Virus record (IMG/VR): IMGVR_UViG_3300034063_001922 | Coordinates: 12,045-76,044 of that record | Strand: one strand, 5' to 3' | DNA length: 64,000 bases | Source: a virus | Shown: positions 31,277 through 63,688 of the stretch, piece after piece | Layout of the letters: each line of letters begins with the position of its first letter | Position numbering within the stretch: the stretch's first letter is position 1 | The notes under the pieces: model-generated | What the model was told of the DNA's origin: nothing | What the model saw: only the letters and a program-made list of their open reading frames with translations | Databases searched by the model: none | Position numbers and translations under genes: made by a program

Positions 31277-31489
31277 TCAGAGCACCGCCACGGTGCCGAG
31301 GCGCCGGGCCTGGAGCTTGCGGGCCCAGAAGTGAGCGCGCTCAGCCGGGATGAAGCGGGGCTTTTTGACCGGCTTGCCGCGGCGGCCATAGAAGACCGTG
31401 ATGCGCTCGGCATCGGCGGCCTTGATCCCACCGGGATAGACGAACACCGCCAGCTGGCGGATTTCGCAGCGGGGAGAGAAGGAGGCCAT
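31277..31489 (-). CDS. Small basic hypothetical protein
   Basis: Distantly similar to 60169-60408; preceded by hairpin A. Confidence 0.6.
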   Translation of the reverse strand: MASFSPRCEIRQLAVFVYPGGIKAADAERITVFYGRRGKPVKKPRFIPAERAHFWARKLQARRLGTVAVL

Positions 31490-31624
31490 CACAAGGAAGG
31501 CGAGGGACGTCCGCGATCAGCCCCGGCTTGCCCCTGGAGGCAAGGACCGCGCAGCGGCCCGGCCTGATCCTTGCCGCCTGGGGCGGGCTGGGGCAGCGGT
31601 GCTCAGGCCCTCGCCGACCGTGAT
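31488..31624. promoter_or_regulatory. Long imperfect hairpin A
   Basis: GGCGAGGG/CCCTCGCC, GCCCCGGCTTGCCCC/GGGGCGGGCTGGGGC, GGCAAGGA/TCCTTGCC, inner CCGC-GCA-GCGG. Confidence 0.65.
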
Positions 31625-31770
31625 CCTCCCGATCCCGCTCGTGCTGAATCCCTCTGCCAGTGGGCTCGTGTGACCCGGCGGATCAGCACCCTGCCTCAGC
31701 CGTGCCGTCGTCCATGGCTGCAGCGACCAAAAAAAGAGGCCCCCTGGGGAGCCCCGCCCGGCTGCTGGCC

Positions 31771-31956
31771 TCAGAAGGGAATGAGCGCCTCGATCGCTGG
31801 ATCAACCCGCATGGCCGGGGCAGCTGCCTGCTGCTCGAACAGCACCTGGGCCGCCAGCTCAGCAAGCCGTGGCCAGCGCGCGCTGCAGAACGCCAGATCT
31901 TCCAGCACCTGCCAGGAGAACTGCTGCAGCTGGATCTTGCGGGAAAGAGAGGCCAT
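31771..31956 (-). CDS. Small hypothetical protein (ends IPF)
   Basis: 61-aa ORF preceded by hairpin B. Confidence 0.55.
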   Translation of the reverse strand: MASLSRKIQLQQFSWQVLEDLAFCSARWPRLAELAAQVLFEQQAAAPAMRVDPAIEALIPF

Positions 31957-32116
31957 GGGAGGGCTCCGCGTAGGACCCCTCAGCCGGCGGGGGGCGGGTC
32001 AAGGGCCCGTCCACAACTGGGATGCGGAGCGCAGCGCAGCCAACGTCCACACCGGCGGGCTCGTATCACCCTTGAGGCGCCCCCCGACCATGAGGAGGGC
32101 CGGAGCGGAGCCCCAT
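31955..32116. promoter_or_regulatory. Long imperfect hairpin B
   Basis: GGGCTCCGC/GCGGAGCCC, CGGGGGGCG/CGCCCCCCG, TCAAGGG/CCCTTGA; loop GCGGAGCGCAGCGCAGCCAACGTCCA shared with 43300-43326. Confidence 0.7.
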
Positions 32117-32158
32117 CGAGAGCCGGTGGTCGCACAACCGCTGAGTTGCTCACCCGCA

Positions 32159-32174
32159 TGGCAATAGCCGGTGA
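32159..32174 (+). promoter_or_regulatory. TGGCAATAG-N3-GTGA late-promoter-like motif (capsid)
   Basis: 52 nt before the capsid ATG. Confidence 0.65.
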
Positions 32175-32210
32175 CGTGATCTGGGGCCGGGCCCCGGGAG
32201 TGCAGCACCG

Positions 32211-33128
32211 ATGGGCCTCACCCTGATCGAGGCAGCCAAGTACGAGACCCGCCTGGAGCACCTGGCGGTGATCAAGACCTTCGCTGAGGGCGAACTGCTC
32301 AGCTGGCTGCCGTTCATGAACATCGCCGGCGGCGGCCTCTTCTATTCCGTCGAGAAGGAGCTCCCCTCGGTGGGCTTCCGGGCCGTGAACGAGGGCTACA
32401 AGCAGAGCTACGGCGTCGTCGATCCCCAGTCAGAGGCCGTGCACCTCTTCGGGGGTGACGTGGATGTGGACCGCTCGATCGTTGACCTGCAGGGCCCGGA
32501 GGCCCGTGCTGCTCAGACCGAGATGAAGGTCCGCTCGATGCGGCTAACGCTGGAGGCCGCCTTGATCAATGGCGACGCCACCGCCAGTCAGGGCCGGGGC
32601 TTTGATGGCCTGGCCAAGCGCCTGATGCCCGGCAGCGAGATGGCGCTGAACAACGGTGGCGGGGCGCTCGATTTCGACAAGCTCGATGAGCTGATCGACT
32701 CGGTCAATTCCTACGGCGGCAAGAAGTACTTGGTGATGAGCAAGGCGATGCGCCGCCAGCTCAATGCCCTCGCCCGCGCCACCGTCGGCCAAGGCGTCTA
32801 CAACGTCTCCACCAACAACCTGGGCGTGATGGTGCATCACTACCAGGAGTGCCAGATCCTCACGGTTGACCGCGACGCCCAGGGCCTCGAAGTCCTCGGG
32901 TACGGGGAAGCGGGCGGCACCAGCTCCATCTACTGCTGCACCTTTGGCGACCAGGCCGTCACCGGACTGCAGGGACCGTTCCAGGGCCGCTACGGCATCT
33001 CCGTGCGCGACCTCGGTGAAGTCCCCGATGCCCCTGTCTTCCGTACCCGGATCGATTGGTACGTGGGCTTTGGCGTCATGCACCCCCGCGCCGCCGGCCG
33101 GCTGCACAGCATCGCACCCATTTCCTGA
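32211..33128 (+). CDS. Major capsid protein
   Basis: MGLTLIEAAK..LPSVGFRAVNEGY..GGDVDVDR..INGD..FDGL..LDELID..RTRIDWYVG pattern typical of an HK97-fold MCP family. Confidence 0.88.
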   Translation: MGLTLIEAAKYETRLEHLAVIKTFAEGELLSWLPFMNIAGGGLFYSVEKELPSVGFRAVNEGYKQSYGVVDPQSEAVHLFGGDVDVDRSIVDLQGPEARAAQTEMKVRSMRLTLEAALINGDATASQGRGFDGLAKRLMPGSEMALNNGGGALDFDKLDELIDSVNSYGGKKYLVMSKAMRRQLNALARATVGQGVYNVSTNNLGVMVHHYQECQILTVDRDAQGLEVLGYGEAGGTSSIYCCTFGDQAVTGLQGPFQGRYGISVRDLGEVPDAPVFRTRIDWYVGFGVMHPRAAGRLHSIAPIS

Positions 33129-42507: not shown

Positions 42508-43233
42508 TCACCGGCAGTGGGCCGCCGCTGCTGCGGCGCGGGCGCCATGGGCCGGAAAGGTGATCACGAACCCGCGATCGGCCTGGGCGCAGAGGGGAAG
42601 ACCAAAGCGGCCGCCGCAGCTGATGCACTGCACCTTGCGGCCGGCTCTCCCCTGGCGGCTGGCGGGGCAGGCCACGAACCGCACGCCCTCGTGGCGGAAT
42701 ACCGCCGGCGCATCGGAGGGCACCACGCAGACCGCCGGGATGCCCTGACGCACCAACGCCGCCGCCCTGGAGCGGGACTCAGTGGAGGCATTGACCACCA
42801 GCCCCTTGGCCGCTGCCAGCCGCAGGGTGGCTTGATTGGCAGGGCCCATCGGGAAGTGGGTGAACGACCAGGCGGCCCGCAGATGCCTGGTGGCCTTGGC
42901 CAGCTGGAGCAGCAGGGCCTGATCGATGCGCAGCGGATCGGCCGGATCAGGCCACTGATCACCGGCGACGCAATGGCGGAAAAGGATGCCCGCCGGCAGC
43001 GCCATCACCTGGCGAAGGAAGGCCGCTGCCGGAAAGCCGCTCTCGCCGCGGCTGAGCCGATCCCAGTGCAGCCGGGTGTGGAAGCCAGCCTCGGCGTAGC
43101 AGCCCTGATCGCCAGCCAGGGGGCAGCTGGAGGGACAGGTTTGCCGGCTGGTGCTGGAGACAGCGATCGGGCCGGTTTTGCCGTTGTCCGACGGGAAGGA
43201 CAGGGATGCACGGTGGGACTCGGCAGCAGCCAC
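42508..43233 (-). CDS. Cys-rich phage protein (GP88-like, possibly Fe-S binding)
   Basis: NGKTGPI..TCPSSCP..GCYA, RHCVAGD, VNASTES, CPA..CISC..LC..FPAHG; start uncertain. Confidence 0.65.
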   Translation of the reverse strand: MAAAESHRASLSFPSDNGKTGPIAVSSTSRQTCPSSCPLAGDQGCYAEAGFHTRLHWDRLSRGESGFPAAAFLRQVMALPAGILFRHCVAGDQWPDPADPLRIDQALLLQLAKATRHLRAAWSFTHFPMGPANQATLRLAAAKGLVVNASTESRSRAAALVRQGIPAVCVVPSDAPAVFRHEGVRFVACPASRQGRAGRKVQCISCGGRFGLPLCAQADRGFVITFPAHGARAAAAAAHCR

Positions 43234-43239
43234 AGGAGG

Positions 43240-43385
43240 GGTGACGCAGGACCCGCCCTGCAACCGCGCCGACAGGCAAGGGCCAGCCACCAGCGAATGG
43301 CGGAGCGCAGCGGAGCCCAACGTCCAGCCCGGCTGGCTGGTGAAACCCTTGCCGAGGCGCGGAGCATGGAAGGGCCTGCGGCACC
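43240..43385. promoter_or_regulatory. Long imperfect hairpin C
   Basis: CGCAGGACCC/GGGCCTGCG, CCGCGCC/GGCGCGG, GGCAAGGG/CCCTTGCC; loop GCGGAGCGCAGCGGAGC. Confidence 0.7.
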
Positions 43386-43421
43386 GACCCCACGACGCAG
43401 ACGATCGCTCTCAGGCACCCC

Positions 43422-44771: not shown

Positions 44772-44821
44772 GGCTGCGGCGCAGCCGGCACGGGGACGGG
44801 AGGCGAGCCGGCGCTGCTCAG

Positions 44822-44830
44822 CTCTTGCCA
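44822..44830 (-). promoter_or_regulatory. TGGCAAGAG late-promoter-like motif (endolysin)
   Basis: 59 nt before ATG 44771. Confidence 0.55.
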
Positions 44831-44858
44831 GCGCCACAAAGCCCAGGCAGACACCAAC

Positions 44859-45191: not shown

Positions 45192-45276
45192 TGGGTTCGG
45201 CGGGGCGGCCGCAGGCGACACGGCCAGCTCTCCACAGGCCATTGCCAAGCCGGCCCACCGCCGGGCTTGAGGGAGC

Positions 45277-45560
45277 TCAGCCCGCTCCCACCAGCTGCTG
45301 GCGCAGTGCGGACAGGGCCTTCTTCTGGGCCCGCTGCACGGCCATCGGGCTGATCTGCAGCTGCGGCGCGGCGGCCCGTAGGGACAGCCCCTCGAGGATG
45401 GTGAGCCGCAGCGCCGTGGCCTGCACGGCGGGTAGTCGCTCGAACAGCTGCTCCTTGGCACACTCGATTGAGGGAGGACACCAGCAAAGGTTCGAATGCG
45501 GAAGTCGCCAGCTGATCCAGCAGGGAGTTGTCACCAGTTGCGGAAGCGTCGTAGTGACAA
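45277..45560 (-). pseudogene. Remnant of a sigma factor 3' end (linker + region 4)
   Basis: ERLPAVQATALRLTILEGLSLRAAAPQLQISPMAVQRAQKKAL region-4 HTH; DASATGDNSLLDQLA linker lies in another frame; no region 2. Confidence 0.65.
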
Positions 45561-49669: not shown

Positions 49670-50046
49670 TGGCTGAGCAAACTCAAGAGCTGCTGCTCTC
49701 GAATGTGACCAACTGCAAATATAAGCCAGTCCGCTGTACAGCCTTTCGGCGCTCTCAAAGAACTTCTTGCACCTCTGGTCTTCGTGAATTGGGCATTCTC
49801 CTCCAATCCCTAATTGCTAAAGTTCGTTCCTCTGCTCATCTCTTGTCTTGAGCATCTCGCTTTCCTGGGTGTCGTCGTCGTGAATAAATGCTCTTTAAAA
49901 GTGTATCCTATTAAGCTCGAGATCGCGCTCTGCTAGGGATTTGGTCGCCCCACGATATAGAAAAGCCTCCGATGATGCCTGGCTGCACTGCTTGCGACTG
50001 AGACACTCCTTGAATCGATACAGCATGATGCTCGGTGAAATAGTGT

Positions 50047-53000: not shown

Positions 53001-53259
53001 CCAGGGCAGCAATATCGGGCTCGCTGAGGAACACGCCTGTGATCAGGCGCATCTGGCCATGCCCATGCCCATCGGGTGAAGACGCCACCAGGTGTTCCAC
53101 ACCTTCCAGTACCTGGAGAAGGGAGCGGCTGGTGAAGTACCCGGTGATGCGCCAGTAGCGGGTGGCATCCATCAGGACCGGCCTGTAGAAACCCTCCAAC
53201 AGACTCTCGATCGAGCTGCTGAAGCGCCCCCTCCAGGCGTGATCGGCGAGGCCTGCCAT
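50047..53259 (-). CDS. PLD-nuclease + SNF2-family helicase
   Basis: FHAKEGVIED..SGSVNET (HKD-type); ADEVGLGKT, DEAHH, TATP, EGLN, QRIGRIDR. Confidence 0.92.
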   Translation of the reverse strand: MAGLADHAWRGRFSSSIESLLEGFYRPVLMDATRYWRITGYFTSRSLLQVLEGVEHLVASSPDGHGHGQMRLITGVFLSEPDIAALAAGTPAETVLTGHLSNHFPFKGVEPGGQGAAALGAELLAWLVDRGHLEIRVGLPLIDGLIVNDGAIFHAKEGVIEDKEGQRLGFSGSVNETPNGWTSNFETIQTFCSWKPGGAEAIDDLEAGFLRLWENQDSGARTFTLPEAIRQQLAIYAPAEETLPRRLKPFLKDLPAPEPEAVVEIVPDIDERRRIVWSYVLQAAASDLPGAERVGEGTSAVTPWPHQQRAFQRLWQQWPPRLLIADEVGLGKTVQAGLLLRQAWLSGRARRMLVMAPASVLKQWQRELREKFGLDWPIYSGKSLDWQPTRFRPAGLSRPVDRSSWTAEPFVLVSSHLMRRRDRHKDLLEAETYDLVVLDEAHHARTRRENSSSGGERLRPNTLMQLMQQLRQRTNGLLLLTATPMQVSELEVWDLLALLGMPPEWTEDAFERFFEWVEKENPDEATLSYLAGLWRSSVTAFGEAPGNAMPEDLRKSPLRKRKALRALNDTDPLSRRNLSIEIRQASLALAKRWTPVQGLISRHSRNLLRAYKQQGSMDLAIGTRHVDDRFLESTPQERALYDAVEDFISTQYSQATGQKKSAVGFVMTIYRRRLASSVAALVSTLEKRMAGQQQQLEEDAAASEDDDITGELTLDLEGMQSAFQEASLQIELDAIGVLLDQARPLVGHDSKGSEFLKAIEQLQAQGYKQVIVFSQYTDTVDALKALLIGAGRTSLMAFTGRGGEILQKGGVWKALNREATKRGFKEGKAEILLCTDAAAEGLNFQFCGALINYDMPWNPMRVEQRIGRIDRIGQTHEQMQIINLHLDGTVEADVYRALKGRIAMFEQVVGKLQPILAKASSSISQATLVSRDQREKARASAVAAVQQEPEIKGLDLDDVLQDLDAIRDVVNTLQPPPLTLSDLEAILRQPALLPPGCSARAIGAYDFAWTQPGLDKEMRVTCNASYYEDNSDSCELWVPGSPLFPMRECQAFSIECPPDRATYEDALKGL

Positions 53260-53265
53260 GGCTGC

Positions 53266-56262
53266 TTACGCCTCGGCCAGTTCCGCCAGCACCAGTTCCA
53301 GCTGCTTGGGCGCCGGCACCTGCTCCGCCAGGGCGAGGCGGCGGAGGTTCTCCAGGGCTTCGAAGTCGGAGGCGGCAGGCGCAGCAGCCTTCACCGGATC
53401 GAAGCCGGTGTAGCGGGCGGAGAGGGGCAGGACTTCGAGCACGGCCTCCAGAGCAGTGAGGAAGTCGCCGCTGTTGGCCAGGCCGTTGTCGTCGAGCAGC
53501 TGCTTGGCGGAATTGAGGTCGATGCTGCGGGCGCGGTGGGCGCAGTGGTGGATGGCATCGATCCAGGAGCGGGTGCCATCGGGAGCGCCGAGCTTGCCCT
53601 TGGTAGCGCGGGTGGAGCTATCCCAGAGGATCAGATCGCTCGCCTTCTTCTCCGCGAGCACGCCCACCACGTCTTTGTCGAGATCCAGCCCCACCACCCG
53701 GGCCAGGCGCAAGGCTTCGTCGTATGGGAACTGGGGTGCCTGGAAGGCATCCCAGGCGAGCACAAACCACTCCGTGAGGGGATCGAGCTGGGCTCGGCGG
53801 GATCCGGAGGTGAGTTTCTCCATGCGCCAGGCCTTCACCTCGCGGCGGGCGGCGTCGAGGGCATCCTCCGGGCTAACGGCGTAGGGATCGTCCTGCTCCA
53901 GTAGCTCTTCCAGCGTGAGTTGGGCACGTCCGCGCTTTCTCGTTTTCTCTTCGATGGGTTTGGGCTGTCCGCGTTTAATCGGCCAGTGCAGGGAGAACTC
54001 CTCCAGTGCAGGTCCGAAACAGGAGAGGTAGAGATCAACCCCGCGGATGCCGCCGGCTTGGAACTGCTCGATGCGCTGGCGCACAGCGGCCTTCACCCGA
54101 GGTTCGAGGTCTTCCCAGTACTGCACGCCGTCTTCCGGCTTTTGCACAGGGCGCGGTCTGCAGACCAGGAAAATCGTGCTGTTGGCGGCCGACTTGTCCT
54201 TGATATGGAGTGATCCCTCGGCCTCAGTGTTGATCGGCCAGGACGCGGTGATCGCGAACCCTGCATCAATGAGGCCTTTAGTGAGTGCATCCCAAGCTCC
54301 CGTGGCTTTGTGGGTGAACATCAAGGTCATCACGCCATCGTCCTTGAGGACGCGTCGACACTCCCTAAAGATTTCGGCCATCTTCTGTTGATAGTCCAGC
54401 CCAGCCAGAGCCTTGGCGCCCTTCTTGCCCTCATGGCGGGCAGGATTGGCAACAGCTTCGTTGTCTTTGTCGGTGAGCGGCACCATGAACAGCTCTGGAT
54501 AGAGCATGCCGGCGGTGCGCTTGAGCCAGACGTAGAAGAAGTCGCTCAACTCCGCATACATCACGTTGTCGTAATAGGGTGGATCCATTACCACCGCATC
54601 CACCGTGCCGTTCTGCAGATGGGAGAGGGAATCGCCGGAGCCACAGTTGATCAGCACTGGCGCCTGCTGGGGAGAAGCTGTGTCTCCAGAGCTTGCAGCA
54701 AACAAAGGGCCGGCATTGGCGGGCGCGGCACTGCTAGGGGCGATCAACTCGACAAGCTCACCAATGCAGCGACTGGTCTTTTCAAAAGCCCAGTCGTAGC
54801 CAACGCCGGAAACCATTGCAGCCATCTCGGCGTAGGACACCTTGAAAGCAAAGTCATGCCGATCAAAGACAGAACGAACACGCAAGATCGTTGAATCCCA
54901 TCTGCAAGATCTTGAATTGTAGTTGAGCAAGGTATCGATAGACAAAGCCACGTAACCCAGCGCCGCTCGCTGAAGGTCGCTAAGTTCTCCATTGCAAACA
55001 GTTTCTTCCTGAACAAGTTCGCGGAAGATTTCCACGCTGGTGCCATGGCAGAGCAGCTGACGGGGTGAGAACAATGCGAGGAAGTCGGTGGCGTCGTACT
55101 GCGCTGGAGTATTGCCATGAGTCCACGACTCGGTATCCATCGGCAAGAGCTCATTCGGCACCAAATCCAGCGCCTCCCACTCCGGCAGCTTTTCCGCCAA
55201 CGCTGCTTCAATAGCGGCGCTGTTGTCATCTTCCTGGCGTGGGGCCCGATAGCCCCGTTCCCACTTCTCCTTTTTCGGCTTGCCGGTTTTGGTGTATTCG
55301 GTGGGCAGCTTGCGCTTGAACACCACTGCATACAACTGCTCGCCCATGCCGCCGGCCTGGGATTGAGCCTTTAACTGATTGCCGTCAATCACCCGGCCGC
55401 AGTCGGGATAGGGACAGGTGGCATCGCCGCCCTTCATCGTCCCGTCACTCTGCTGGCGGGCACTGCCCACAATTTCAAAGACGCAATGACGGCTGGCATC
55501 GCCGGGACCATCACCCAACTGTGGGACCACCTTCACGCCGGTGCCATCAGGAGCCAGCCTCCAGTTCGGGGACAGCGGTACCTTGCCCGCGCAGTAAGGG
55601 CAGTGGATGGTGCGGGCCCATAGGTAGCCATCTGGGCGGCAATCGGGCGATGGTTCCAGGGGAAAGGCCCAGCCCAAACGCTCTCGCACGCGTCCGGCCA
55701 GCTCCTCCCCAAGTCGCTTCACCTCATTCACTAGGGGAGGGCCGAACTTCGACGGCCACTCAAAGGTGGCCTTCTCAACAAGCACCGCCACGGGGTTGAT
55801 GTCATTTGCAAAGGTGGTGCAACCAATACGGAGTGCTTCGAATGGGATTGCTCCACCGCCAGCCGTTGGGTCAAGAACTGTGGGCTGATGAATGCCAAGT
55901 CTCTGGGCTTCCTCCAGCAGCCAGAACAGCTCCTTCTCACTGGGTGAATAGCTGAACGCACGGCTATAGCCATAGGCATCGGCGCCCAGTCGTACACCTT
56001 CACGCGTTGCCTTGGCAATTCGCTTCTTGGCCGCCACCGGATCGCCATGGATACCGAGCATGTGCATAAAGGTCTTGCGATCGGCATCGGCCGGGAGCAA
56101 CGAGGCCAGCACTGCCGCCCGCGAGGCCACCAGGGGCCGGCGCGCCCACCACACATGCAAGCGGTTCGGAGCTGGGAAGGGCGTCATTGGCGTCCGCTCG
56201 CGAACACTCTCGATTCCGATTTCGGCGATCGGCAGCCACTCCTCGATCAGGCGTTTGGTCAT
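53266..56262 (-). CDS. DUF1156 DNA adenine methyltransferase with Zn ribbon
   Basis: LHVWWARRPL, DPTAGGG, CPYC..CPYPDC, DPPYYDNVMY. Confidence 0.92.
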   Translation of the reverse strand: MTKRLIEEWLPIAEIGIESVRERTPMTPFPAPNRLHVWWARRPLVASRAAVLASLLPADADRKTFMHMLGIHGDPVAAKKRIAKATREGVRLGADAYGYSRAFSYSPSEKELFWLLEEAQRLGIHQPTVLDPTAGGGAIPFEALRIGCTTFANDINPVAVLVEKATFEWPSKFGPPLVNEVKRLGEELAGRVRERLGWAFPLEPSPDCRPDGYLWARTIHCPYCAGKVPLSPNWRLAPDGTGVKVVPQLGDGPGDASRHCVFEIVGSARQQSDGTMKGGDATCPYPDCGRVIDGNQLKAQSQAGGMGEQLYAVVFKRKLPTEYTKTGKPKKEKWERGYRAPRQEDDNSAAIEAALAEKLPEWEALDLVPNELLPMDTESWTHGNTPAQYDATDFLALFSPRQLLCHGTSVEIFRELVQEETVCNGELSDLQRAALGYVALSIDTLLNYNSRSCRWDSTILRVRSVFDRHDFAFKVSYAEMAAMVSGVGYDWAFEKTSRCIGELVELIAPSSAAPANAGPLFAASSGDTASPQQAPVLINCGSGDSLSHLQNGTVDAVVMDPPYYDNVMYAELSDFFYVWLKRTAGMLYPELFMVPLTDKDNEAVANPARHEGKKGAKALAGLDYQQKMAEIFRECRRVLKDDGVMTLMFTHKATGAWDALTKGLIDAGFAITASWPINTEAEGSLHIKDKSAANSTIFLVCRPRPVQKPEDGVQYWEDLEPRVKAAVRQRIEQFQAGGIRGVDLYLSCFGPALEEFSLHWPIKRGQPKPIEEKTRKRGRAQLTLEELLEQDDPYAVSPEDALDAARREVKAWRMEKLTSGSRRAQLDPLTEWFVLAWDAFQAPQFPYDEALRLARVVGLDLDKDVVGVLAEKKASDLILWDSSTRATKGKLGAPDGTRSWIDAIHHCAHRARSIDLNSAKQLLDDNGLANSGDFLTALEAVLEVLPLSARYTGFDPVKAAAPAASDFEALENLRRLALAEQVPAPKQLELVLAELAEA

Positions 56263-56263
56263 G

Positions 56264-56293
56264 AGTTCAGTTCAGTTCAGTTCAGTTCAGTTC
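56264..56293. repeat. (AGTTC)6 pentanucleotide microsatellite
   Basis: Six perfect copies filling the gap between the upstream stop and the MTase ATG. Confidence 0.95.
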
Positions 56294-56739
56294 GCAGAGA
56301 GCAGAAGACGAAGAGCTGCCAGCACCCGCCTGGGGTTCTTCCGGTGCATGGCCATCCCCAGCCAGTAGGCGGCCTCCTCGCGGGCCATGGCATCGATGCC
56401 ACGGGCGCAGTTCTCGATCGCGGCCACGTTGCGCATCGGGGCCAGCAGCTTGAACAGCAGCCCCATCGCCAGGGCCAGATCCTCAGAGAGTGCGTCCCGC
56501 CGGCCCTCGCCTTTCTTGAGCTTGGCCAGGCTCACCTGCTCGGCCTTGAGCCGCCGGAGCACTGCTCCCTCCACCAGCAAGAGCTTGTGGCCGCCGAGGC
56601 CCGCAATGCGCCGAGGCTCTTTCAGCTCAGGGGTGGCGGTGCTGGGCACCTGCCACACCTCCAGCTCCAGATCGCTGGGGCCGCGCTGCCTGCTGCGCAG
56701 TTCGTAGGCCGGCCGGCCAGAAGCAATGGCCTGGGTCAT
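56287..56739 (-). CDS. DUF3780-like small protein of DUF499 systems
   Basis: EEAAYWL..ALRLLL C-terminus; position between the DUF499 and DUF1156 genes. Confidence 0.7.
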   Translation of the reverse strand: MTQAIASGRPAYELRSRQRGPSDLELEVWQVPSTATPELKEPRRIAGLGGHKLLLVEGAVLRRLKAEQVSLAKLKKGEGRRDALSEDLALAMGLLFKLLAPMRNVAAIENCARGIDAMAREEAAYWLGMAMHRKNPRRVLAALRLLLSAN

Positions 56740-59700
56740 GCGTCGGTCAACTCCAGGCGGATCGTGGCGGTCTGAGCGCTGAGGCCAGCCCGGGTGAGGC
56801 GAGCGATCCAGCCCTCGCCGCCGTCATCCCAGCGCAAGGGAGGCTCGTAGCGGAGCTGATAGGTGATATCGAGTGACTTCTCACCGCCGCGGCGCCACTG
56901 GCCCTCGATGAAGCCCCGCAGATGGCTGGCCTCCTCGGGGGTGCCGTTGAAATCGAAGCTCCATTCGGCGCTGCCGTCGCCGCTGCTCCAGCCTCCCTCC
57001 ATCATTTCGACGCGCACCGTGGCGCCAGGCTCGGCCTTGAGCAGGGCCATCGGCAGGAAGCCATCACCACTGTTCATCCTCCAGGTGAGGCTCTTGATGG
57101 CCTTGCCCGAGCTGCTCACCTGCTGGGCCAGCTGAGTGAGGGCTGTCTTCACGTTGTCGGTGCGCTCGATCACCCCAGGGCCAGGGGGTGGTGCAACGCC
57201 CGCTCCGCCGCCTCTGCCGGGGCTGGTGGAGCCAAATCCCACCTGAACAGCGCTGCCCGTCTCTCCTCCTCCAGCCACCGGCGTTGTCCCACCGTCACCG
57301 CCAAGGACGGTTGGCTGATCCACGCCAGTTTCGCCAGCTGGAGCTGAGGTTTTCGGAGGCCAGACGCTCAACTCAAGCGCCTTCTCCATCGTGTAGATCT
57401 TGCCGTCCTCACTGATCGAGAGCGTTCCCGGCGGCAGGCCCTGGCCTTCGAGGCGATCACCCTCCTTGTAGACGAACAGTCCCTGATCCAGGCCCATGCG
57501 CAAGCACTTCTTGAGCACCTCATCCCCCAGCAGGATCGGCAGGGCTGGATCGCGGTAGTACTCGTTGCGCAGATCCCGCGTGCTCATCACCCCCATGCGC
57601 TTCAGGGGTGTCTTGTCGGCCATGTAGTTCGGGGCCGGCGGTGCATCTTCTGCCAACACCAGTTCCCGGGCTTCCCGCAACACCCGCTCCACCTGCTTCT
57701 GGCCCACCCCAGGCTCACTGCTGGCACTGGTGACCGTGATGGCGGCATGGGTGAGGGGCACCTCGGGCCACTGACCCCGCTCGGGATAGAACACGTGCCG
57801 GTAGCACTGCTGCACCGCCAGGGCGAATCCCTGCTGCGCCTGGCCGTAGCGCTCCTTCACCTGATCCTGCTGGTGCGACTGCAGGCTGGCGAACAGATCA
57901 CCCTGCTGCATCTGCTGCAGCGCCAGGTAGGTGCGGGCCTTGCGCAGCATGTCGTCCACCTGCAGGGCATCGGCGCAGACGAACACCAGGTTGTTGCGGT
58001 TAAGGCGCACATTGGCGTTGTCGCCCTTCTCCTTGAACAGCCGCACCACCAGTTCCGGCAGGTGGATGTTCGCCTGCTCCACGGTGTGGCCTTCCCAGTG
58101 GATTACCGCCAGGTAGGGGCCGTCGGTGTCGTCAGGGATGTCAGCCGGGCTGGAGGGGAACAGCACAGGCTCCAGCCGTTGCTTGGCAAAGATCGTGCCG
58201 ATGCGGCGGTTCAGCTCCTCTCGCACTGACTCCAGATCAAACAGCTGCTCACGCTTCCTCACCATCTGGTTGAGGTTGGCGTCGGTGAGAAAACGCAGCT
58301 TGCTGGTGCCGCTGTCGTCGAGATATTCCGACTCTTCCTGCAGGAGGCGCACCGCCTTGTCGACAAAGGCCGGGTCCACAGCCGGGGCGTAGAGGCTGTA
58401 GTTCAACTCCAGGCGGCTGAGGCCCTTGAGCGGTTCGTTGAATGCCAGGGAGTGGAATAGGACCGTGCGCGCTGCCATCGACCCATAGGGCTCCATTCCC
58501 GTGAATTCCTGTGCATCCAGCCGCTGGGCTAGGGCCCTGCCGCCTTCGGCCGGCGTGGTGGACACATCCGCCCGAATCGCCGGGATGAAGGCCTGCAACC
58601 CCAGCTTGGTGGAGAGCTCCAATCGAATCCGCTCGTTGCCCGGATCGATGTGGTGGAGGTGAACGGCTGTGACGCCCCGTGGTTGCTCACGCCAGAGCTG
58701 GCCTACGGTCTGCGCCAGCAGCCGCAACATGCCCCGCACCCGCTGGAAGTTTTCCAGGGTGGAGGTCTTCTGCATCAGGGTTTCGATCAGCTCCGGATGG
58801 AGCGGATAGCCCTTGCGCAAGTTGGCAGTCCGGTCATCGCTCTGCCCCACCGGCGGCAGGGCCTCGGTGGTGCGGCTCCAGATCTCCTGGTAGGAACGCA
58901 CGACCTCCTCGACTCGGCTGCGATCGATCGACTCGAACAGGCGCCGGGTCAGCACCTGCACTGTCTCGTCTTCGCTGGTGGGCGTGAGAGCTGTGATCTG
59001 CCGGCCCGTGACCGACTGCAGTTCAGCAAAGATCCTGTCGATCCTCTGGTTTTCCTCCCCGTAGGCATCCACCGCCTGGCCACCCTTGCCCAGGGCCAGG
59101 GTGAACACCAGCACGGCCTGGGGAGAGGAGTTCACCGCCTTGATCAGGTCGGTGAGGAACGGCGTGAGCTGCTCGGCGGCTTGGCCGGCAGCGGGGCCCT
59201 TGATCTTGCGCAGGTAGATCGAGAGCTCATCGATCAGGATCAGCACCGGCCGCTCGCCGATCAGCTCGCGCAGGGTTTCGGCGCCGGGAGGCGCGGCACC
59301 AAGACGGTCGCTGTTGCGGATGCGCTCGTAGCCCGCGGGCCCTGCCAGCTGCACCGCCAGCTCACCCCAGGGGGTGAAGGCCAGCACATTGCCCTCCATG
59401 CGCCGGCCGTTCATCGGGTCGGCGTTCTCGCCGTCGAAGGCCGCCACCGTGACCTTCTGGCTGGGCAGGCGGGCTGGATCGATGAACTCCGCCAGATTGG
59501 GGATCTGATCGGCGGCCGTCAGGATGTGGTTGAGCCCGATCAGCGCGTGGGTCTTGCCGCCGCCATAGCTGGTATCGAGCCGCAGGATGCTGCCCAGCTG
59601 GCTGCCGGAGCTGGTGAGCCGGTCCACCACCGCCAGGAACAGGTCGCGCAGACCCCTGGTGGGGTGGGTGTTCGCGAAGAAGACAGCCGGGTTCTTGTAG

Positions 59701-59822
59701 AGCTCAGGAGCGGTGCCCTTGAGCACCTGGCTGAGGTCGGCTGCAAAGTCTTCATCCCGGATACGCCCTTCCAGCACGTCGGCCCGAGGCCGGCAGAGCT
59801 CGTAAATGGTGGGAGGGCTCAT
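56736..59822 (-). CDS. DUF499 AAA+ ATPase
   Basis: FFANTHPT, YGGGKTH, LIDEL, YPLHPEL, FQRVRGMLRLL. Confidence 0.9.
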   Translation of the reverse strand: MSPPTIYELCRPRADVLEGRIRDEDFAADLSQVLKGTAPELYKNPAVFFANTHPTRGLRDLFLAVVDRLTSSGSQLGSILRLDTSYGGGKTHALIGLNHILTAADQIPNLAEFIDPARLPSQKVTVAAFDGENADPMNGRRMEGNVLAFTPWGELAVQLAGPAGYERIRNSDRLGAAPPGAETLRELIGERPVLILIDELSIYLRKIKGPAAGQAAEQLTPFLTDLIKAVNSSPQAVLVFTLALGKGGQAVDAYGEENQRIDRIFAELQSVTGRQITALTPTSEDETVQVLTRRLFESIDRSRVEEVVRSYQEIWSRTTEALPPVGQSDDRTANLRKGYPLHPELIETLMQKTSTLENFQRVRGMLRLLAQTVGQLWREQPRGVTAVHLHHIDPGNERIRLELSTKLGLQAFIPAIRADVSTTPAEGGRALAQRLDAQEFTGMEPYGSMAARTVLFHSLAFNEPLKGLSRLELNYSLYAPAVDPAFVDKAVRLLQEESEYLDDSGTSKLRFLTDANLNQMVRKREQLFDLESVREELNRRIGTIFAKQRLEPVLFPSSPADIPDDTDGPYLAVIHWEGHTVEQANIHLPELVVRLFKEKGDNANVRLNRNNLVFVCADALQVDDMLRKARTYLALQQMQQGDLFASLQSHQQDQVKERYGQAQQGFALAVQQCYRHVFYPERGQWPEVPLTHAAITVTSASSEPGVGQKQVERVLREARELVLAEDAPPAPNYMADKTPLKRMGVMSTRDLRNEYYRDPALPILLGDEVLKKCLRMGLDQGLFVYKEGDRLEGQGLPPGTLSISEDGKIYTMEKALELSVWPPKTSAPAGETGVDQPTVLGGDGGTTPVAGGGETGSAVQVGFGSTSPGRGGGAGVAPPPGPGVIERTDNVKTALTQLAQQVSSSGKAIKSLTWRMNSGDGFLPMALLKAEPGATVRVEMMEGGWSSGDGSAEWSFDFNGTPEEASHLRGFIEGQWRRGGEKSLDITYQLRYEPPLRWDDGGEGWIARLTRAGLSAQTATIRLELTDA

Positions 59823-60168: not shown

Positions 60169-60408
60169 TCAGAGCACCAGCACCCGGGCCTGGGGCCCGA
60201 GCACCCGCTGCTGATTGGCAGCCAAGATGAGGGCCTCGCAGCGGGGCACGAAGTGGGGCTGGGCGGAGATGTGCCCCTCGCGATCGAGGAAGAGCACCCG
60301 CAGCAGCTGGCCGGCTGAGCCCAGCAGATGGACTGAAACCACGCGGATCGGGCACTGGCGCTCGATCGGCCCGCGGCTTGGCTGAGCGGGGAAGAGAGGG
60401 CGAGCCAT
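60169..60408 (-). CDS. Small hypothetical protein
   Basis: Distantly similar to 31277-31489; preceded by hairpin D. Confidence 0.6.
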   Translation of the reverse strand: MARPLFPAQPSRGPIERQCPIRVVSVHLLGSAGQLLRVLFLDREGHISAQPHFVPRCEALILAANQQRVLGPQARVLVL

Positions 60409-60416
60409 GGCAGGGA

Positions 60417-60546
60417 TGGCGAACGACACCACCGCTGCGCCCCGGTGAAGCCAGCTCCGCGCAAGGGTCGTGGAACGCAGTGGAGCGACTCGCGTCAGCC
60501 CTTGCGCGGTGCGCGAGCCGGGGCAGGCCGGGTGGCGTGATCGCCA
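60417..60546. promoter_or_regulatory. Long imperfect hairpin D
   Basis: TGGCGA/TCGCCA, GCCCCGG/CCGGGGC, CCGCGCAAGGG/CCCTTGCGCGG; loop GGAACGCAGTGGAG. Confidence 0.65.
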
Positions 60547-60575
60547 GCCCCCAGGGCTCAGCCGGATCTGAGGGC

Positions 60576-61720: not shown

Positions 61721-61755
61721 GGCATCGAGGGGGTGAGTGGGATCTGGGATCGAAA

Positions 61756-61968
61756 TCAGTGGGCGGAGCTTTGAGGCGGCAGCGGCTCGATCAGCACCCA
61801 GCAGGGCGGCTCGCTGCAGTGGATGTGATCGGGTGAAGGTCGGCGGCCCGGCTTGCGGGTGATCGGCACAACCCAGCTGGCGAGCCGTGTGGACCAGATG
61901 TGGCCCCTGGGCCTCGGTGTCGTGGGTGTCGTGGTGGCCGTGGCGCTGGCGTAGGTGGAGAGATCCAT
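61756..61968 (-). CDS. Small hypothetical protein
   Basis: 70-aa ORF between the Gp157 and Rad52 genes. Confidence 0.4.
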   Translation of the reverse strand: MDLSTYASATATTTPTTPRPRGHIWSTRLASWVVPITRKPGRRPSPDHIHCSEPPCWVLIEPLPPQSSAH

Positions 61969-62044
61969 GGCTGTTGCTCAAGGTGATGGGATTGGGGTCA
62001 GGGCCCGCACGCGCAGCGGGCCGGTATCAGGGGCCTCTGGCCTT

Positions 62045-62662
62045 TCAACTGATGCGCCAGGAGCGGCGTGAGAGCAGCTGGGCGCCTTCGATGTGGCGGC
62101 CAGCCTTGAGGGCTTCCTTGATGGCTGCCTTGTCGGGCTTGCTGGTGGTGGTGACGGCCAACCACTCGGGAGCGAGGGCCTCTTCGTCGTAGATCTCGAC
62201 GGCCTGGGATTTGCGGCTGCTGAGCTCGTGATTGGGGAAGGAGAAACGGGTGGCGCTGGGCTGCAGGCGAGTAAGCACCAGCACCAGCGATTCCTCAAGG
62301 GCATCGGCCCGGGAGGCATCGGAGCGGGAAAGCTCGGTGAGCCGCTTGGCCTGCTGCTGGCGGTAGGCGGCTTGGCCTCGGAGGTGCTCGATCACCCAGC
62401 AGGTGGCATCGGCCTTGGCAGCCAGGGCGGTTTTGTTGTGTTCTTCGGCAAGGAGGGCAGCCTCCAGCTCGGCGAGGGCCTGGGCGCGGGTGTCGTCGTC
62501 GGCTTCCAGTTGTTCGGCCAGCTGGCCGATGGTGGTGGTGAGTTCCTGGGCCTCGATGCCCAGCTGCCACAGGGAACCGGAACGATGGAGGGAGCAGGAC
62601 GGCCCGGTGGCCTGGGGGAGAGCCGGGGAGAGGGGAGCGACGCGGGCAGTGAGAACGGCCAT
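62045..62662 (-). CDS. Siphovirus Gp157 family protein
   Basis: Coiled coil, then RKSQAVEI.DE..PDKAAIKEALKAG..IEGAQL. Confidence 0.85.
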   Translation of the reverse strand: MAVLTARVAPLSPALPQATGPSCSLHRSGSLWQLGIEAQELTTTIGQLAEQLEADDDTRAQALAELEAALLAEEHNKTALAAKADATCWVIEHLRGQAAYRQQQAKRLTELSRSDASRADALEESLVLVLTRLQPSATRFSFPNHELSSRKSQAVEIYDEEALAPEWLAVTTTSKPDKAAIKEALKAGRHIEGAQLLSRRSWRIS

Positions 62663-62713
62663 GGGGATGGGAATGTGAGGAGTGAACGAGAAGAACGGGG
62701 CGGCGGAGGCCGC

Positions 62714-63235
62714 TCAAGCGGCGAGGGGCTCCGGTGCGAACGGCGGCGGCACTTCCATCACCACCACCGGCACCGGTGAGCGGGAGGAGCAACGGCGGGC
62801 CTGCAGCACCAGAGAGGCCGTGCCGGGGCCACCGGGAAAGGCGATCACCAGCACCGAGGTACTGAGAGCCGGGGACGTGTGGGCCTGGGCTTCCGCCAGG
62901 GCCTGCTCGAGGAGGCGCCGATTGCGGATCGGCCCGGCGCTTCGGCCATAGCGACCCCACTCGGCGGGAAGGGACTGGACCCGCCAGCCGAGCTGCTGGG
63001 CAGCACGGCCGATGGCCTGATCGGCGCCACGGGCAGCGCCATGGAGCAACAGATGGACGGCCCGGCCGCCGCTTCGCTGGAGGAGGGCGGAGGCGATGCG
63101 CTCCTGGGGCCAGGAGAGATCACGGCCACCGGCGGCGACGATGACGACAGAGCGATGAACAACAACCGGCGGCGGCAACAGGCCAGCCAGAGGCAATGCA
63201 GCGGCGTGGGCCACTGCAGCAGAGGACAAGCTCAT
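62714..63235 (-). CDS. SLOG family (DUF2493/YspA-like) protein
   Basis: AGGRD..LHGAARGAD..AEWGRYGRSAGPIRN..AFPGGPGT. Confidence 0.85.
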   Translation of the reverse strand: MSLSSAAVAHAAALPLAGLLPPPVVVHRSVVIVAAGGRDLSWPQERIASALLQRSGGRAVHLLLHGAARGADQAIGRAAQQLGWRVQSLPAEWGRYGRSAGPIRNRRLLEQALAEAQAHTSPALSTSVLVIAFPGGPGTASLVLQARRCSSRSPVPVVVMEVPPPFAPEPLAA

Positions 63236-63572
63236 GGGCTACAGAGCAAACGAACGGGGCAAGTTGTCCGAGGATTTCGTTGCCGCAGGCGATGGGCTCG
63301 TGGCCTTTGGCGCGACTCTTATTCTAGCAGTACAAACGCACTATTGAGCGAGCAGGGCGGCTGCGGGGCAATCGATCTGCCCAAAACGCAGCCACCCCTG
63401 ACGGGCCAAGCAGCTTGATAACCAATGCAGCCAGATTCGCTCCGAATCGACCGGCGCCGCGCAGTCGCGCGAGGAAAGCTGGGGCCTCTCCTCAGCACCC
63501 CGCCGGCTGGCAGCCGCCCGGCCACCGCAGCCGCGGGAGAGTGGCCCTGCCAGCCACCCCCATCAACGGCCC

Positions 63573-63688
63573 CGGAGCGGAGGGCGGCGGCGGCTGGCCG
63601 ATGCACGCCACGGCGCAGCCGTGGCACGCTGAAGGACGGCCGTCGCCGACCGAAGCCCTGCGGTGCCTGCAAACCCGCAGCCGCTCCG
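63573..63688. other. Branched hairpin E with perfect GCCACGGC-GCA-GCCGTGGC stem-loop
   Basis: CGGAGCGG/CCGCTCCG outer stem; inner 8-bp stem at 63607-63625. Confidence 0.55.

What the first reader, a model, noticed from the sequence alone, without database searches (positions are those of the whole stretch)
31488..63688. Family of long template-strand hairpins upstream of small minus-strand genes: ssDNA-promoter-like system inside a prophage
Seen: four 130-160 nt imperfect stem-loops (31488-31624, 31955-32116, 43240-43385, 60417-60546) abut the start codon of a minus-strand gene. Each has a CAAGG/CCTTG stem 44-54 nt from the start, read as TTGCCT, TTGACC, TTGCCT or TTGCGC (-35-like) on the coding strand. 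Loops carry GC-GCA-GC or GC-GGA-GC on the plus (template) strand, degenerate in D. B and C share loop sequence (GCGGAGCGCAGCG.AGCC.AACGTCCA) while their stems differ yet still pair, which indicates selection on structure. A fifth branched hairpin with a perfect GCA-triloop stem lies near the att end (63573-63688). Established: GC-GNA-GC forms exceptionally stable, strand-specific DNA mini-hairpins; Frpo/ssi elements of plasmid leading regions and N4 virion-RNAP promoters work as template-strand hairpins. Inference: these genes are switched on when the plus strand is single-stranded or extruded (entry, replication, transformation or mobilisation), although the element has no relaxase. A structured RNA leader is the alternative explanation.
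Basis: partly seen in the sequence, partly recalled or inferred. Interest (0 to 1): 0.8.

Follow-up and report, generated by a model that had tools for sequence, protein, structure and literature searches.

The report
Start-codon hairpin cassettes in cyanobacterial prophages
Four long DNA palindromes that end exactly at the start codons of small genes belong to a large, conserved and apparently undescribed family in prophage-like elements of freshwater picocyanobacteria; they probably switch those genes on or off, and several features point to a hairpin formed by the template DNA strand rather than by the RNA.

Summary
Hairpins A, B, C and D are real, fold better than shuffles and include the three best palindromes of the 76 kb record. 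They belong to a family of about 85 distinct hairpins in related viral contigs and picocyanobacterial genomes. A covariance model of the core finds it in 29 of 121 sampled genomes of that family.

The shared design is CAAGG, an 8-10 nt bulge on the gene-distal side, a freely covarying stem, a GC-UNC-GC apex and CCUUG. A second motif, GGNGTCC..CGCC, lies at -22 to -10, and the base reaches CC-ATG-GC. The core-to-ATG distance is fixed.

- On the template strand the apex is the GCGNAGC/GCGNNAGC DNA mini-hairpin in 22 of 25 short loops, and never on the sense strand.
- Mismatches are purine-purine on that strand, and G.U is not favoured over A.C.
- Relatives place hairpins before ArdC and an ECF sigma factor.

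Against it, there are no -35/-10 boxes, relaxase, Rep or phage RNA polymerase, and hairpins C and D lie inside operons. A structured RNA leader remains a strong rival.

The fifth hairpin is a different element. No Rfam family or paper describing this family was found.

The parts
31488..31624 (-). Hairpin A. The palindrome extends to about 31444-31671. The apical core is 31529-31585 and the start-proximal motif GACGTCCCTCGCC is at 31499-31511 (minus sense).
   Evidence: Folds. Model R1 scores 59.9 bits on the minus strand and 29.7 on the plus strand. Conserved with compensatory changes upstream of gene A homologues in 16 viral contigs.
31277..31489 (-). Gene A, 70 aa, no known family. Its start codon lies in the basal helix of hairpin A.
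   Evidence: Translation. No Pfam or PHROG hit. Homologues found. Distant paralogue of gene D (hhalign 74%, E 2.7e-5).
31957..32116 (-). Hairpin B. The core with a branched apical insert is 31988-32086, and three overlapping GCGNAGC motifs lie on the plus strand at 32024-32040.
   Evidence: Folds. R1 scores 28.4 bits on the minus strand. The hairpin is 100% identical in L002/L006, where gene B is only 85% identical in protein.
31771..31956 (-). Gene B, 61 aa, no known family, followed by an intrinsic terminator at 31736-31755 (minus strand).
43240..43385 (-). Hairpin C. It fills the gap between the endolysin gene (43422-44837) and gene C, inside the minus-strand lysis operon that begins at the late-promoter motif at 45239-45247.
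   Evidence: Folds. Shares the CAAGG stem, the 5' bulge and the apical sequence with B. Conserved in L032 and L033. Late motif located.
42508..43233 (-). Gene C, a DUF7227 protein with a GTG start.
   Evidence: Pfam PF23872, E 2e-74.
60417..60546 (-). Hairpin D. The palindrome spans 60399-60563, the core is 60450-60516, and the motif GGTGTCGTTCGCC is at 60418-60430 (minus sense).
   Evidence: Folds. R1 scores 51.7 bits on the minus strand and 20.5 on the plus strand, and D was not in the seed alignment. 21 near-identical relatives.
60169..60408 (-). Gene D, 79 aa, no known family. It is the most widespread gene preceded by a hairpin.
63573..63688 (.). The 'fifth hairpin', which is a separate element and not part of the family. 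63573-63642 is invariant in four relatives and contains the perfect stem GCCACGGC-GCA-GCCGTGGC. Sequence beyond about 63665 is not conserved.
45343..45465 (-). Remnant (region 4 only) of the ECF sigma gene that in relatives follows gene D and has its own hairpin.
   Evidence: tblastn 83% identity over 41 aa. Intact gene in L030:3559-4188 and L134:7135-7794.

Best explanation
A, B, C and D belong to one family of orientation-specific cis-acting expression cassettes. They are carried by a lineage of prophage-like elements of freshwater picocyanobacteria (Cyanobium and Synechococcus types).

Each cassette is a 130-230 nt imperfect palindrome with these parts:
- a conserved apical module: the CAAGG/CCTTG helix, an 8-10 nt one-sided bulge and a variable 4-8 bp stem capped by GC-GNA-GC on the template strand;
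- a variable middle stem;
- a conserved block next to the start (GGNGTCC..CGCC at -22 to -10);
- a base that reaches or includes CC-ATG-GC, with no Shine-Dalgarno sequence.

My preferred mechanism is that the functional fold is made by the template DNA strand when that strand is unwound, either as single-stranded DNA during replication or recombination or by supercoil-driven extrusion. The apical mini-hairpin would nucleate the fold and keep SSB off. RNA synthesis by host RNA polymerase, or by the element's primase-helicase, would then start near the hairpin base and give an mRNA with almost no leader. This is how Frpo/ssi signals and N4 early promoters work.

Shown here: the family, its anatomy, the covariation, the strand asymmetry and the fixed geometry relative to the start codon.
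Inferred: that the fold forms in DNA, where transcription starts, which enzyme reads it, and when the strand is single-stranded.

Transcripts that read through from upstream would also form the sense RNA hairpin. That hairpin would bury the start codon, so the cassette may in addition insulate the gene from read-through.
For: 1. Selection on pairing. 14 of 22 core pairs change on both sides, with a covariation score of 0.383 against 0.152 for shuffles (0 of 500). More than 15 different Watson-Crick versions of the apical stem exist. The basal helix switches between ATCAC/GTGAT and CCATGGG/CCCATGG.

2. Strand asymmetry.
- The two closing pairs are invariant and the loop is UNC or UNNC in the sense strand in 22 of 25 short loops. 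On the template strand this reads GCGNAGC or GCGNNAGC, the DNA mini-hairpin consensus. None lies in the opposite orientation.
- That motif melts at 76.5 C as DNA but 39 C as RNA. It occurs at G4 and St-1 primase sites, at ssiA and at N4 promoters, and binds SSB poorly (PMC13037366).
- In 17 representative hairpins, mismatches are purine-purine on the template strand 94 times against 45 for the reverse class (p 4e-5), while sense G.U and A.C are equal at 30 and 29.
- The template strand folds better in 42 of 52 hairpins with DNA parameters.

3. Promoter-like geometry. The distance from the core to the ATG is 28-42 nt in about 85 hairpins that precede at least 12 gene families. A conserved block lies at -22 to -10, and the region upstream of the ATG is pyrimidine-rich with no Shine-Dalgarno sequence.

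4. Gene content. In relatives the hairpins precede ArdC anti-restriction genes and an ECF sigma factor. This parallels the large stem-loops upstream of ardA, klcA and a methylase gene in plasmid leading regions (PMC12672017).

5. Orientation. All hairpins within one element are co-oriented, even when 20-35 kb apart.
Against: - No -35/-10 pair was found in or near any of the four hairpins. Hairpin D contains no TA dinucleotide at all.
- No relaxase, rolling-circle Rep, T7/N4-type RNA polymerase or tyrosine recombinase is present in a record rated complete.
- The element has a terminase, portal, a PSS2-like major capsid protein and an endolysin, so it is a dsDNA phage type with no known single-stranded entry stage.
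- C and D occupy whole intercistronic gaps of co-directional operons, and arrays of gene-hairpin-gene occur in relatives. This is the layout of RNA processing or translation-control sites.
- Metatranscriptome contigs run through hairpins B and C contiguously with the genes. This is weak evidence, because DNA carry-over cannot be excluded.
- G.T is not favoured over A.C on the template strand either.
- GCGNAGC is common in this GC-rich DNA (95 matches against about 102 expected), so only its position and orientation carry weight.
- The co-orientation may simply reflect conserved gene order.
- The hairpin variants are related to one another, so the counts are not independent events.
Confidence: 0.42

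Rival explanations
1. The hairpin is a structured sense RNA, either a leader or an intercistronic hairpin. The whole palindrome is transcribed and its basal helix buries the start codon and the conserved block next to it. Expression then needs cleavage (for example by RNase III, as at T7 intercistronic sites or the lambda N leader) or a trans-acting protein that binds the apical module (as Com does on Mu mom mRNA, or the coat protein on the MS2 operator). The closest formal parallel is the start-associated sequence (SAS) with its extended inverted repeats (ESAS) in Cluster K mycobacteriophages.
For: - The start codon lies in or within 0-10 nt of the basal helix, and this helix shows compensatory changes.
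- The distance to the ATG is fixed and the start context CC-ATG-GC is conserved.
- C and D fill the gaps between co-directional genes, and relatives show gene-hairpin-gene arrays.
- RNA-library contigs cover gene B plus the entire hairpin B (31769-32113), and the end of the endolysin gene, hairpin C and gene C together (42773-43490).
- A conserved sequence lies upstream of A-type hairpins.
- The SAS/ESAS precedent also has start-linked repeats with imperfect inverted repeats and an unknown function (PMC3203893).
Against: - There is no excess of G.U over A.C (30 against 29; 24 against 18; about 5 against 10 single changes), which is unusual for a selected RNA helix.
- Unpaired and mismatched positions are pyrimidine-rich in the sense strand.
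- The UNC triloop is not a known stable RNA loop, whereas its complement is the DNA mini-hairpin.
- The sense strand folds less well in most cases.
- A helix of -80 to -130 kcal/mol over the AUG would silence the gene unless it were cleaved.
- No Rfam family matches.
Confidence: 0.36
2. The hairpins are single-strand initiation (priming) signals for DNA synthesis. The template-strand hairpins with their mini-hairpin apex would be recognised by the element's T7-type zinc-ribbon primase-helicase, or by host primase, on the displaced strand during rolling-circle or recombination-dependent replication, as at the G4/St-1 origin or at ssiA. Their position before genes would be secondary.
For: - The mini-hairpin consensus lies on one strand only, and this motif is typical of primase sites (PMC13037366).
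- The element encodes a primase-helicase with the PF08273 zinc ribbon, a Rad52-type annealing protein and a Gam-like protein.
- The conserved GGGTC/GTGTC-like block resembles T7 primase recognition sites. This comparison is from my own knowledge and was not tested.
- All hairpins in an element are co-oriented.
Against: - The fixed distance to a start codon in at least 12 gene families, and the inclusion of the ATG in the palindrome, are not explained by priming.
- Priming sites need not precede genes.
- The GTC-containing block lies on the sense strand, not on the strand that carries the mini-hairpin.
Confidence: 0.1
3. The palindromes act as double-stranded DNA: operators for a dimeric regulator, or repeated regulatory cassettes whose shared cores mediate recombination and gene shuffling, as PeSLs do in T4-type phages. 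No hairpin would ever form.
For: - Transitions are tolerated symmetrically on both arms.
- The cores are shared between cassettes whose flanks are unrelated.
- The hairpins flank variable cargo. In the window a 15 kb defence and kinase island lies between D and the lysis genes, where relatives have only the ECF sigma gene.
- PeSLs provide a precedent (PMC2839356).
Against: - Arms covary over 50-60 bp of otherwise free sequence, which a DNA-binding protein would not require.
- The one-sided bulge and the one-strand GNA loop are asymmetries that have no meaning in duplex DNA.
- There is no sigma-70 promoter and no U-tract terminator, unlike PeSLs.
Confidence: 0.08

Closest known systems
Frpo/ssi single-stranded DNA promoters of conjugative plasmid leading regions (F, ColIb-P9, pESBL)
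   Same: Both have several large stem-loops on the template strand. Each lies directly upstream of an early or anti-defence gene or operon (ardA, klcA, a methylase gene there; ArdC and small unknown genes here). All are in one orientation, and sequence classes are unrelated to one another but share the structure (PMC12672017).
   Different: The plasmid hairpins rebuild sigma-70 -35/-10 boxes in the stem, and these do not. The plasmids enter cells as ssDNA through a relaxase and oriT, whereas this element has phage packaging genes and no relaxase. The conserved CAAGG module, the one-sided bulge and the GGNGTCC..CGCC block have no counterpart in the plasmid hairpins.
Bacteriophage N4 early promoters, read by the virion RNA polymerase
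   Same: Both have a template-strand hairpin with a short GC stem and a 3-nt GNA-type loop of the mini-hairpin class, which can be extruded from supercoiled DNA (PMC13037366 and my own knowledge).
   Different: In N4 the small hairpin is the whole promoter, is centred about 11 nt before the start site, and needs the giant virion RNA polymerase. Here the small hairpin caps a 130-230 nt palindrome, lies 70-90 nt from the start codon, and no phage RNA polymerase was found.
Start-associated sequences (SAS) and extended SAS (ESAS) of Cluster K mycobacteriophages
   Same: Both are phage-specific repeats tied to the translation starts of a subset of genes. Both have an asymmetric start-proximal motif plus imperfect inverted repeats with a variable spacer just upstream, are conserved with the gene family, and have an unknown function (PMC3203893).
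   Different: The SAS contains a Shine-Dalgarno-like GGAG and the inverted repeats are only 17 bp. Here there is no Shine-Dalgarno sequence, the repeats are 60-100 nt arms with strong covariation, and the sequences are unrelated.
RNase III processing hairpins between genes of T7 and the lambda N leader
   Same: Both are irregular intercistronic hairpins in phage operons, next to the downstream start. This comparison rests on my own knowledge.
   Different: The coliphage hairpins are about 50-60 nt RNA hairpins with G.U pairs. They have no conserved apical module and no strand-asymmetric DNA mini-hairpin.
Integron attC sites
   Same: Both are imperfect hairpins of similar length between small co-oriented cassette-like genes. 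attC sites act as folded single strands with extrahelical bases.
   Different: attC sites keep the base conserved (R''/R' core sites) and vary the apex, which is the reverse of what is seen here. No RYYYAAC/GTTRRRY core sites are present, and there is no integrase in the record.
PeSL promoter-stem-loop cassettes of T4-type phages
   Same: Both are repeated regulatory cassettes between small accessory genes in variable regions, and may promote modular shuffling (PMC2839356).
   Different: PeSLs are about 70 bp and consist of a sigma-70 early promoter plus a terminator. Neither element is present here.

Membership tests
Frpo/ssi-type ssDNA promoter | A large stem-loop formed by the strand that serves as template, directly upstream of the transcribed gene | tested here: met
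   The plus (template) strand folds as DNA at -44 to -50 kcal/mol, z -3.9 to -5.3. The hairpin base lies 0-10 nt from the start codon.
Frpo/ssi-type ssDNA promoter | -35 and -10 boxes for the housekeeping sigma factor rebuilt in the stem | tested here: not met
   No promoter-like site on either strand in or around A, B, C or D. The conserved blocks are CCTTG, CCGGGGC and GGNGTCC..CGCC.
Frpo/ssi-type ssDNA promoter | The element enters or exists as single-stranded DNA (relaxase and oriT, or rolling-circle Rep) | tested here: not met
   PF03432, PF08751 and PF02486 are absent from the 76 kb record. The replicase is a primase-helicase.
Frpo/ssi-type ssDNA promoter | Active on single-stranded templates and silent on duplex templates | not testable with these tools
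   This needs in vitro transcription or time-resolved start-site mapping.
N4 virion-RNAP hairpin promoter | A template-strand hairpin with a 5-7 bp stem and a 3-nt loop | tested here: met
   The apical stem is 4-8 bp, with GC-GNA-GC or GC-GNNA-GC on the template strand in 22 of 25 short loops.
N4 virion-RNAP hairpin promoter | A phage-encoded single-subunit (T7-like) RNA polymerase | tested here: inconclusive
   PF00940 was not found, but the control genomes did not respond either. Pfam annotation of the large ORFs gives a helicase, a methylase and DUF499, with no polymerase.
DNA mini-hairpin (GCGNAGC / GCGNNAGC) | Two G-C closing pairs and a G...A loop on one DNA strand | tested here: met
   Columns 32-33 and 39/41 of alignment A5 are invariant GC/GC, and the loop is T-N(N)-C in sense, which is G-N(N)-A on the template strand. 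The consensus is taken from PMC13037366.
Integron attC site | Conserved R''/R' core sites (RYYYAAC / GTTRRRY) at the hairpin base, with a variable apex | tested here: not met
   The bases differ between types (ATCACGG.., CTGGCGAT.., GGGCTCCGC.., GGTGCCGC..) while the apex is the conserved part.
Integron attC site | An integron integrase (tyrosine recombinase) nearby | tested here: not met
   PF00589 is absent from the record, while all 14 control genomes responded.
Any Rfam RNA family | A match to a curated covariance model | tested here: not met
   Only the tRNA-Pro reaches a gathering score. The best sub-threshold hits have E 0.16-0.9 and are unrelated families.
PeSL cassette | A sigma-70 early promoter plus a terminator stem-loop | tested here: not met
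   No promoter-like site and no U-tract at the hairpins.
Cluster K SAS/ESAS | The 13 bp GGGATAGGAGCCC repeat at the start with 17 bp inverted repeats upstream | tested here: not met
   The sequence motif is absent, and the start-proximal block here is GGNGTCC..CGCC. The resemblance is in layout only (PMC3203893).

The most novel reading that the evidence does not exclude
A tailed-phage-like prophage lineage of picocyanobacteria carries its own regulon of 4 to more than 10 template-strand DNA hairpin promoters or initiation signals. These are capped by GCGNAGC mini-hairpins, lack sigma-70 boxes, and drive nearly leaderless mRNAs for anti-restriction (ArdC), sigma-factor and small unknown genes whenever that strand is unwound. 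This would be a third, independent class of structure-dependent initiation signal beside Frpo/ssi and N4, and the first in a temperate dsDNA phage and in cyanobacteria.
Probability: 0.3. Interest if true: 0.88.

Novelty: new variant of a known kind. Interest (0 to 1): 0.72.

Why it matters
- If the template-strand reading is right, structure-dependent initiation on unwound DNA is not confined to conjugative plasmids and N4-like phages. It would be a general way for mobile elements to time early and anti-defence genes, and here it would work without recognisable sigma-70 boxes.
- If the RNA reading is right, this is a large new class of start-codon-occluding leaders in cyanophage operons, comparable to the still unexplained SAS/ESAS system of mycobacteriophages.
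- Either way the family gives a sharp search handle for accessory, probably anti-defence, genes in picocyanobacterial prophages: a covariance model plus a fixed distance to the ATG.
- It also offers a simple test system. About 85 natural variants carry compensatory changes, and isolates that hold such elements exist (Cyanobium sp. Cruz-8D1, Vulcanococcus limneticus LL, Synechococcus sp. HJ21-Hayes).

Tried and rejected
- A sliding 140-nt fold scan of the whole record was too coarse to rank the hairpins. A self-complement alignment scan replaced it.
- MAFFT misaligned full-length A-type hairpins between subgroups, so covariation was measured on the apical core only.
- My first mismatch count on no-GU folds suffered from branch artefacts. 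The palindrome alignment replaced it.
- The -35-like reading was rejected because no -10 exists at 16-18 nt in any type (my reading; scans).
- ECF-type (AAC..CGTC) and sigma-54-type spacings were looked for by eye in the ATG-anchored set. They were not consistent.
- I checked whether the phage late motif TGGCAATAG explains the hairpins. It does not, because the motif lies outside them. The sequence upstream of A-type hairpins (TGGCRGRG..TTCAGCAC) does not carry the late motif's GTGA extension.
- A coding reading of the hairpins was considered, since frames are open through D and A2-type hairpins. I set it aside because open frames are common at 70% G+C and the variation shows no codon periodicity.
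- Arm-specific conservation, which would have favoured one model, was inconsistent between types.
- Public sequencing runs: metatranscriptome contigs cover hairpins B and C but also bridge into the capsid gene. They carry no strand or end information and may include DNA, so no start site could be derived.
- The protein atlas gave nothing for A and D. AlphaFold models had pLDDT of about 60, so no fold search was made.
- Our earlier-findings index had no look-alike.
- The sister element in the first 12 kb of the record has no family member.

Full report
**What the window is**

The window is part of a 76 kb virus record of about 68% G+C.
- It carries a major capsid protein closest to cyanophage PSS2, a terminase, a primase-helicase and a sigma factor with region 2 only.
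- It also carries an endolysin, a Rad52-type annealing protein and a Gam-like protein, and ends at a tRNA-Pro.
- A defence-like island (DUF499, DUF1156 methylase, SNF2 helicase, DUF7680) and three kinase or phosphatase genes lie at 45.7-59.8 kb.
- Relatives are found in Cyanobium, Vulcanococcus and freshwater Synechococcus genomes.

**The observation**

The four hairpins exist where stated, and each ends at the start codon of a minus-strand gene: A (70 aa), B (61 aa), C (DUF7227) and D (79 aa).
- They fold better than dinucleotide shuffles on both strands, as RNA and as DNA, with z from -3 to -5.9. B reaches this only once its true ends are used.
- In a self-complement scan of the whole record, D, A and C score 80, 73 and 57, against 54 or less for everything else.
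- B and C share an apical sequence found nowhere else in the window.

**A large family**

Homologues of genes A, B, C and D in IMG/VR contigs carry hairpins at the same place, and these differ by compensatory changes.
- A 16-mer from hairpin D recovers dozens of picocyanobacterial loci, many with several hairpins.
- About 75 distinct cores lie in the loci I held. They are often arrayed gene-hairpin-gene. In L030, for example, hairpins precede ArdC, gene D, an ECF sigma gene and DUF7227.
- A covariance model of the core (R1) scores A at 59.9 bits, D at 51.7 bits (D was not in the seed) and B at 28.4 bits, all on the minus strand. The opposite strand scores 30 bits lower for A and D.
- R1 finds 8-22 sites in each of five genomes.
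- It finds sites in 29 of 121 sampled genomes of that family, all of them 2.2-4.0 Mb genomes; none of the no-match genomes listed in the output was smaller than 1.3 Mb or larger than 2.4 Mb, and 72 further no-match genomes were not listed.
- Rfam has no matching family. My literature searches found no description of these hairpins.

**Anatomy, read in the sense of the downstream gene**

- The apical module is CAAGG(G), then an 8-10 nt bulge on the 5' side only (GCUGACGCGA is the most common; also UCGGGCCAGG, GUGAUACGA and GUUUCACCA), then a 4-8 bp stem with more than 15 Watson-Crick versions, then two invariant closing pairs and a loop UNC or UNNC in 22 of 25 short loops, then CCUUG.
- Longer apices carry (UGCGC)n repeats or a branched insert, as in B and C.
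- The middle stems differ between types but still pair.
- When the sequences are anchored on the ATG, 36 non-redundant types share GGNGTCC(Y)N(N)CGC(C/T) at about -22 to -10, then 8-10 pyrimidine-rich nucleotides without a Shine-Dalgarno sequence, then CC-ATG-GC.
- The distance from the 3' end of the core to the ATG is 28-42 nt in nearly all of about 85 hairpins, and the palindrome commonly includes the ATG (GGCCATGG/CCATGGCC).

**Selection on structure**

- On 23 distinct cores, 82% of cells pair, against 36-52% when the partners are slid.
- 14 of 22 pairs change on both sides.
- The covariation score is 0.383 against 0.152 for shuffles, and none of 500 shuffles reaches it.
- The hairpins are as conserved as the adjoining coding sequence, or more so.

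**Which strand, and RNA or DNA?**

Four tests bear on this.
1. Wobble pairs. In 17 representative hairpins, sense G.U and A.C are equal at 30 and 29. The same holds in the core alignment (24 and 18) and among single changes in D-type variants (about 5 and 10). A selected RNA helix normally shows far more G.U than A.C.
2. Other mismatches. They are pyrimidine-pyrimidine in the sense strand 94 times against 45 for purine-purine (p 4e-5). The template strand therefore carries the more stable G.A, G.G and A.A set.
3. Energies. The template strand folds better in 42 of 52 hairpins with DNA parameters and in 31 of 52 with RNA parameters.
4. The apex. On the template strand it reads GC-GNA-GC or GC-GNNA-GC, which is exactly the DNA mini-hairpin consensus, and it never lies on the sense strand. 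That motif melts at 76.5 C as DNA but 39 C as RNA. It is known from the primase sites of G4 and St-1, from ssiA and from N4 early promoters, and it binds SSB poorly (PMC13037366). GCGNAGC itself is common in this GC-rich DNA, so the weight lies in its position and orientation.

**What argues against an ssDNA promoter**

- No -35/-10 pair exists in or near any hairpin.
- The record has no relaxase, rolling-circle Rep, tyrosine recombinase or recognisable phage RNA polymerase.
- Hairpin C lies within the lysis operon downstream of a late-promoter motif, and D lies between co-directional early genes, so both are probably transcribed through.
- RNA-library contigs do run through B and C, although these cannot give strand or ends and may contain DNA.
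- The basal helix over the AUG, the fixed distance to the start and the operon-internal position are classic features of translational control or processing sites. The SAS/ESAS repeats of Cluster K mycobacteriophages show the same layout, with function unknown (PMC3203893).

**Weighing**

- I put a template-strand DNA hairpin that starts RNA synthesis near its base at about 0.42.
- A sense RNA leader or intercistronic hairpin is at about 0.36.
- A priming signal is at about 0.10.
- A purely duplex operator or recombination cassette is at about 0.08.
- The first two are not exclusive. Read-through RNA would in any case form a helix of -80 to -130 kcal/mol over the AUG, so the cassette could both silence read-through and provide its own conditional start.
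- In plasmids, large stem-loops of unrelated sequence classes upstream of ardA, klcA and a methylase gene act as ssDNA promoters (PMC12672017). Hairpins before ArdC here fit that theme.

**The fifth hairpin**

63573-63688 is not a family member. R1 does not hit it and it abuts no start codon. In four relatives 63573-63642 is invariant, but the sequence beyond about 63665, which includes the proposed 3' arm, is unrelated. It is a separate conserved element near the attachment end.

**Verdict**

The family appears to be undescribed. It is best filed as a new variant of structure-dependent cis-regulatory elements, and it needs start-site mapping to settle the mechanism.

Noticed in passing
window 45733-59822: A cargo island lies between gene D and the lysis genes. 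It holds two Ser/Thr kinase genes and a PP2C-like gene in a 47-50% G+C stretch, then an SNF2 helicase (1070 aa), a DUF1156 methylase (998 aa), DUF7680 and a DUF499 ATPase (1028 aa), which looks like a defence system. Relatives have only an ECF sigma gene at this position.
   Followed up: partly
window 45343-45465 (minus strand); L030:3559-4188; L134:7135-7794: Relatives encode a complete ECF sigma factor (regions 2 and 4) directly after gene D, preceded by its own hairpin. The window keeps only a 41-aa remnant of region 4. A 52-aa hairpin-preceded protein in L128 has a weak NepR anti-sigma hit (E 0.002).
   Followed up: partly
window 31277-31489 and 60169-60408: Proteins A and D look like distant paralogues. 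Both share C-x-I-R near the N-terminus and (R/H)F(I/V)P further on, and hhalign gives 74% probability (E 2.7e-5). AlphaFold models of both have low confidence (pLDDT about 60) but a similar order of elements: strands, then a helix, then a final strand.
   Followed up: partly
window 63573-63642: A 70-nt block next to the tRNA-Pro end of the element is invariant in four relatives whose flanks are only about 85% identical. It contains the perfect stem GCCACGGC-GCA-GCCGTGGC. It could be an attachment-arm, packaging or small-RNA element.
   Followed up: partly
window 29238, 32159 and 37755 (plus strand), 45239-45247 (minus strand); sigma gene 21657-22292: The motif TGGCAATAG followed by NNN-GTGA lies upstream of late genes, including the major capsid gene, and upstream of the lysis operon. 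The element's sigma factor has only a region 2 match in Pfam. This fits a phage-specific late promoter.
   Followed up: partly
hairpin apices, e.g. L027:2881-2947 against L030:2891-2947; window 32024-32040 and 43300-43316: Apical loops differ between close relatives by whole pentamer units, (TGCGC)n in sense and (GCGCA)n on the template strand. The mini-hairpin motif is therefore present one to three times in tandem, which looks like replication slippage at the mini-hairpin.
   Followed up: no
whole record: GATC occurs 610 times against 254 expected from base composition, and CGATCG 71 times against 26. GCGATCGC (HIP1) occurs 8 times against 2.6.
   Followed up: no
window 30778-31152 (minus strand) and 31188-31270: A DoxX-family membrane protein gene lies downstream of gene A in the same inverted island. 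It is separated from gene A by three short perfect GC hairpins (e.g. 31188-31222) that may be terminators without U-tracts.
   Followed up: no
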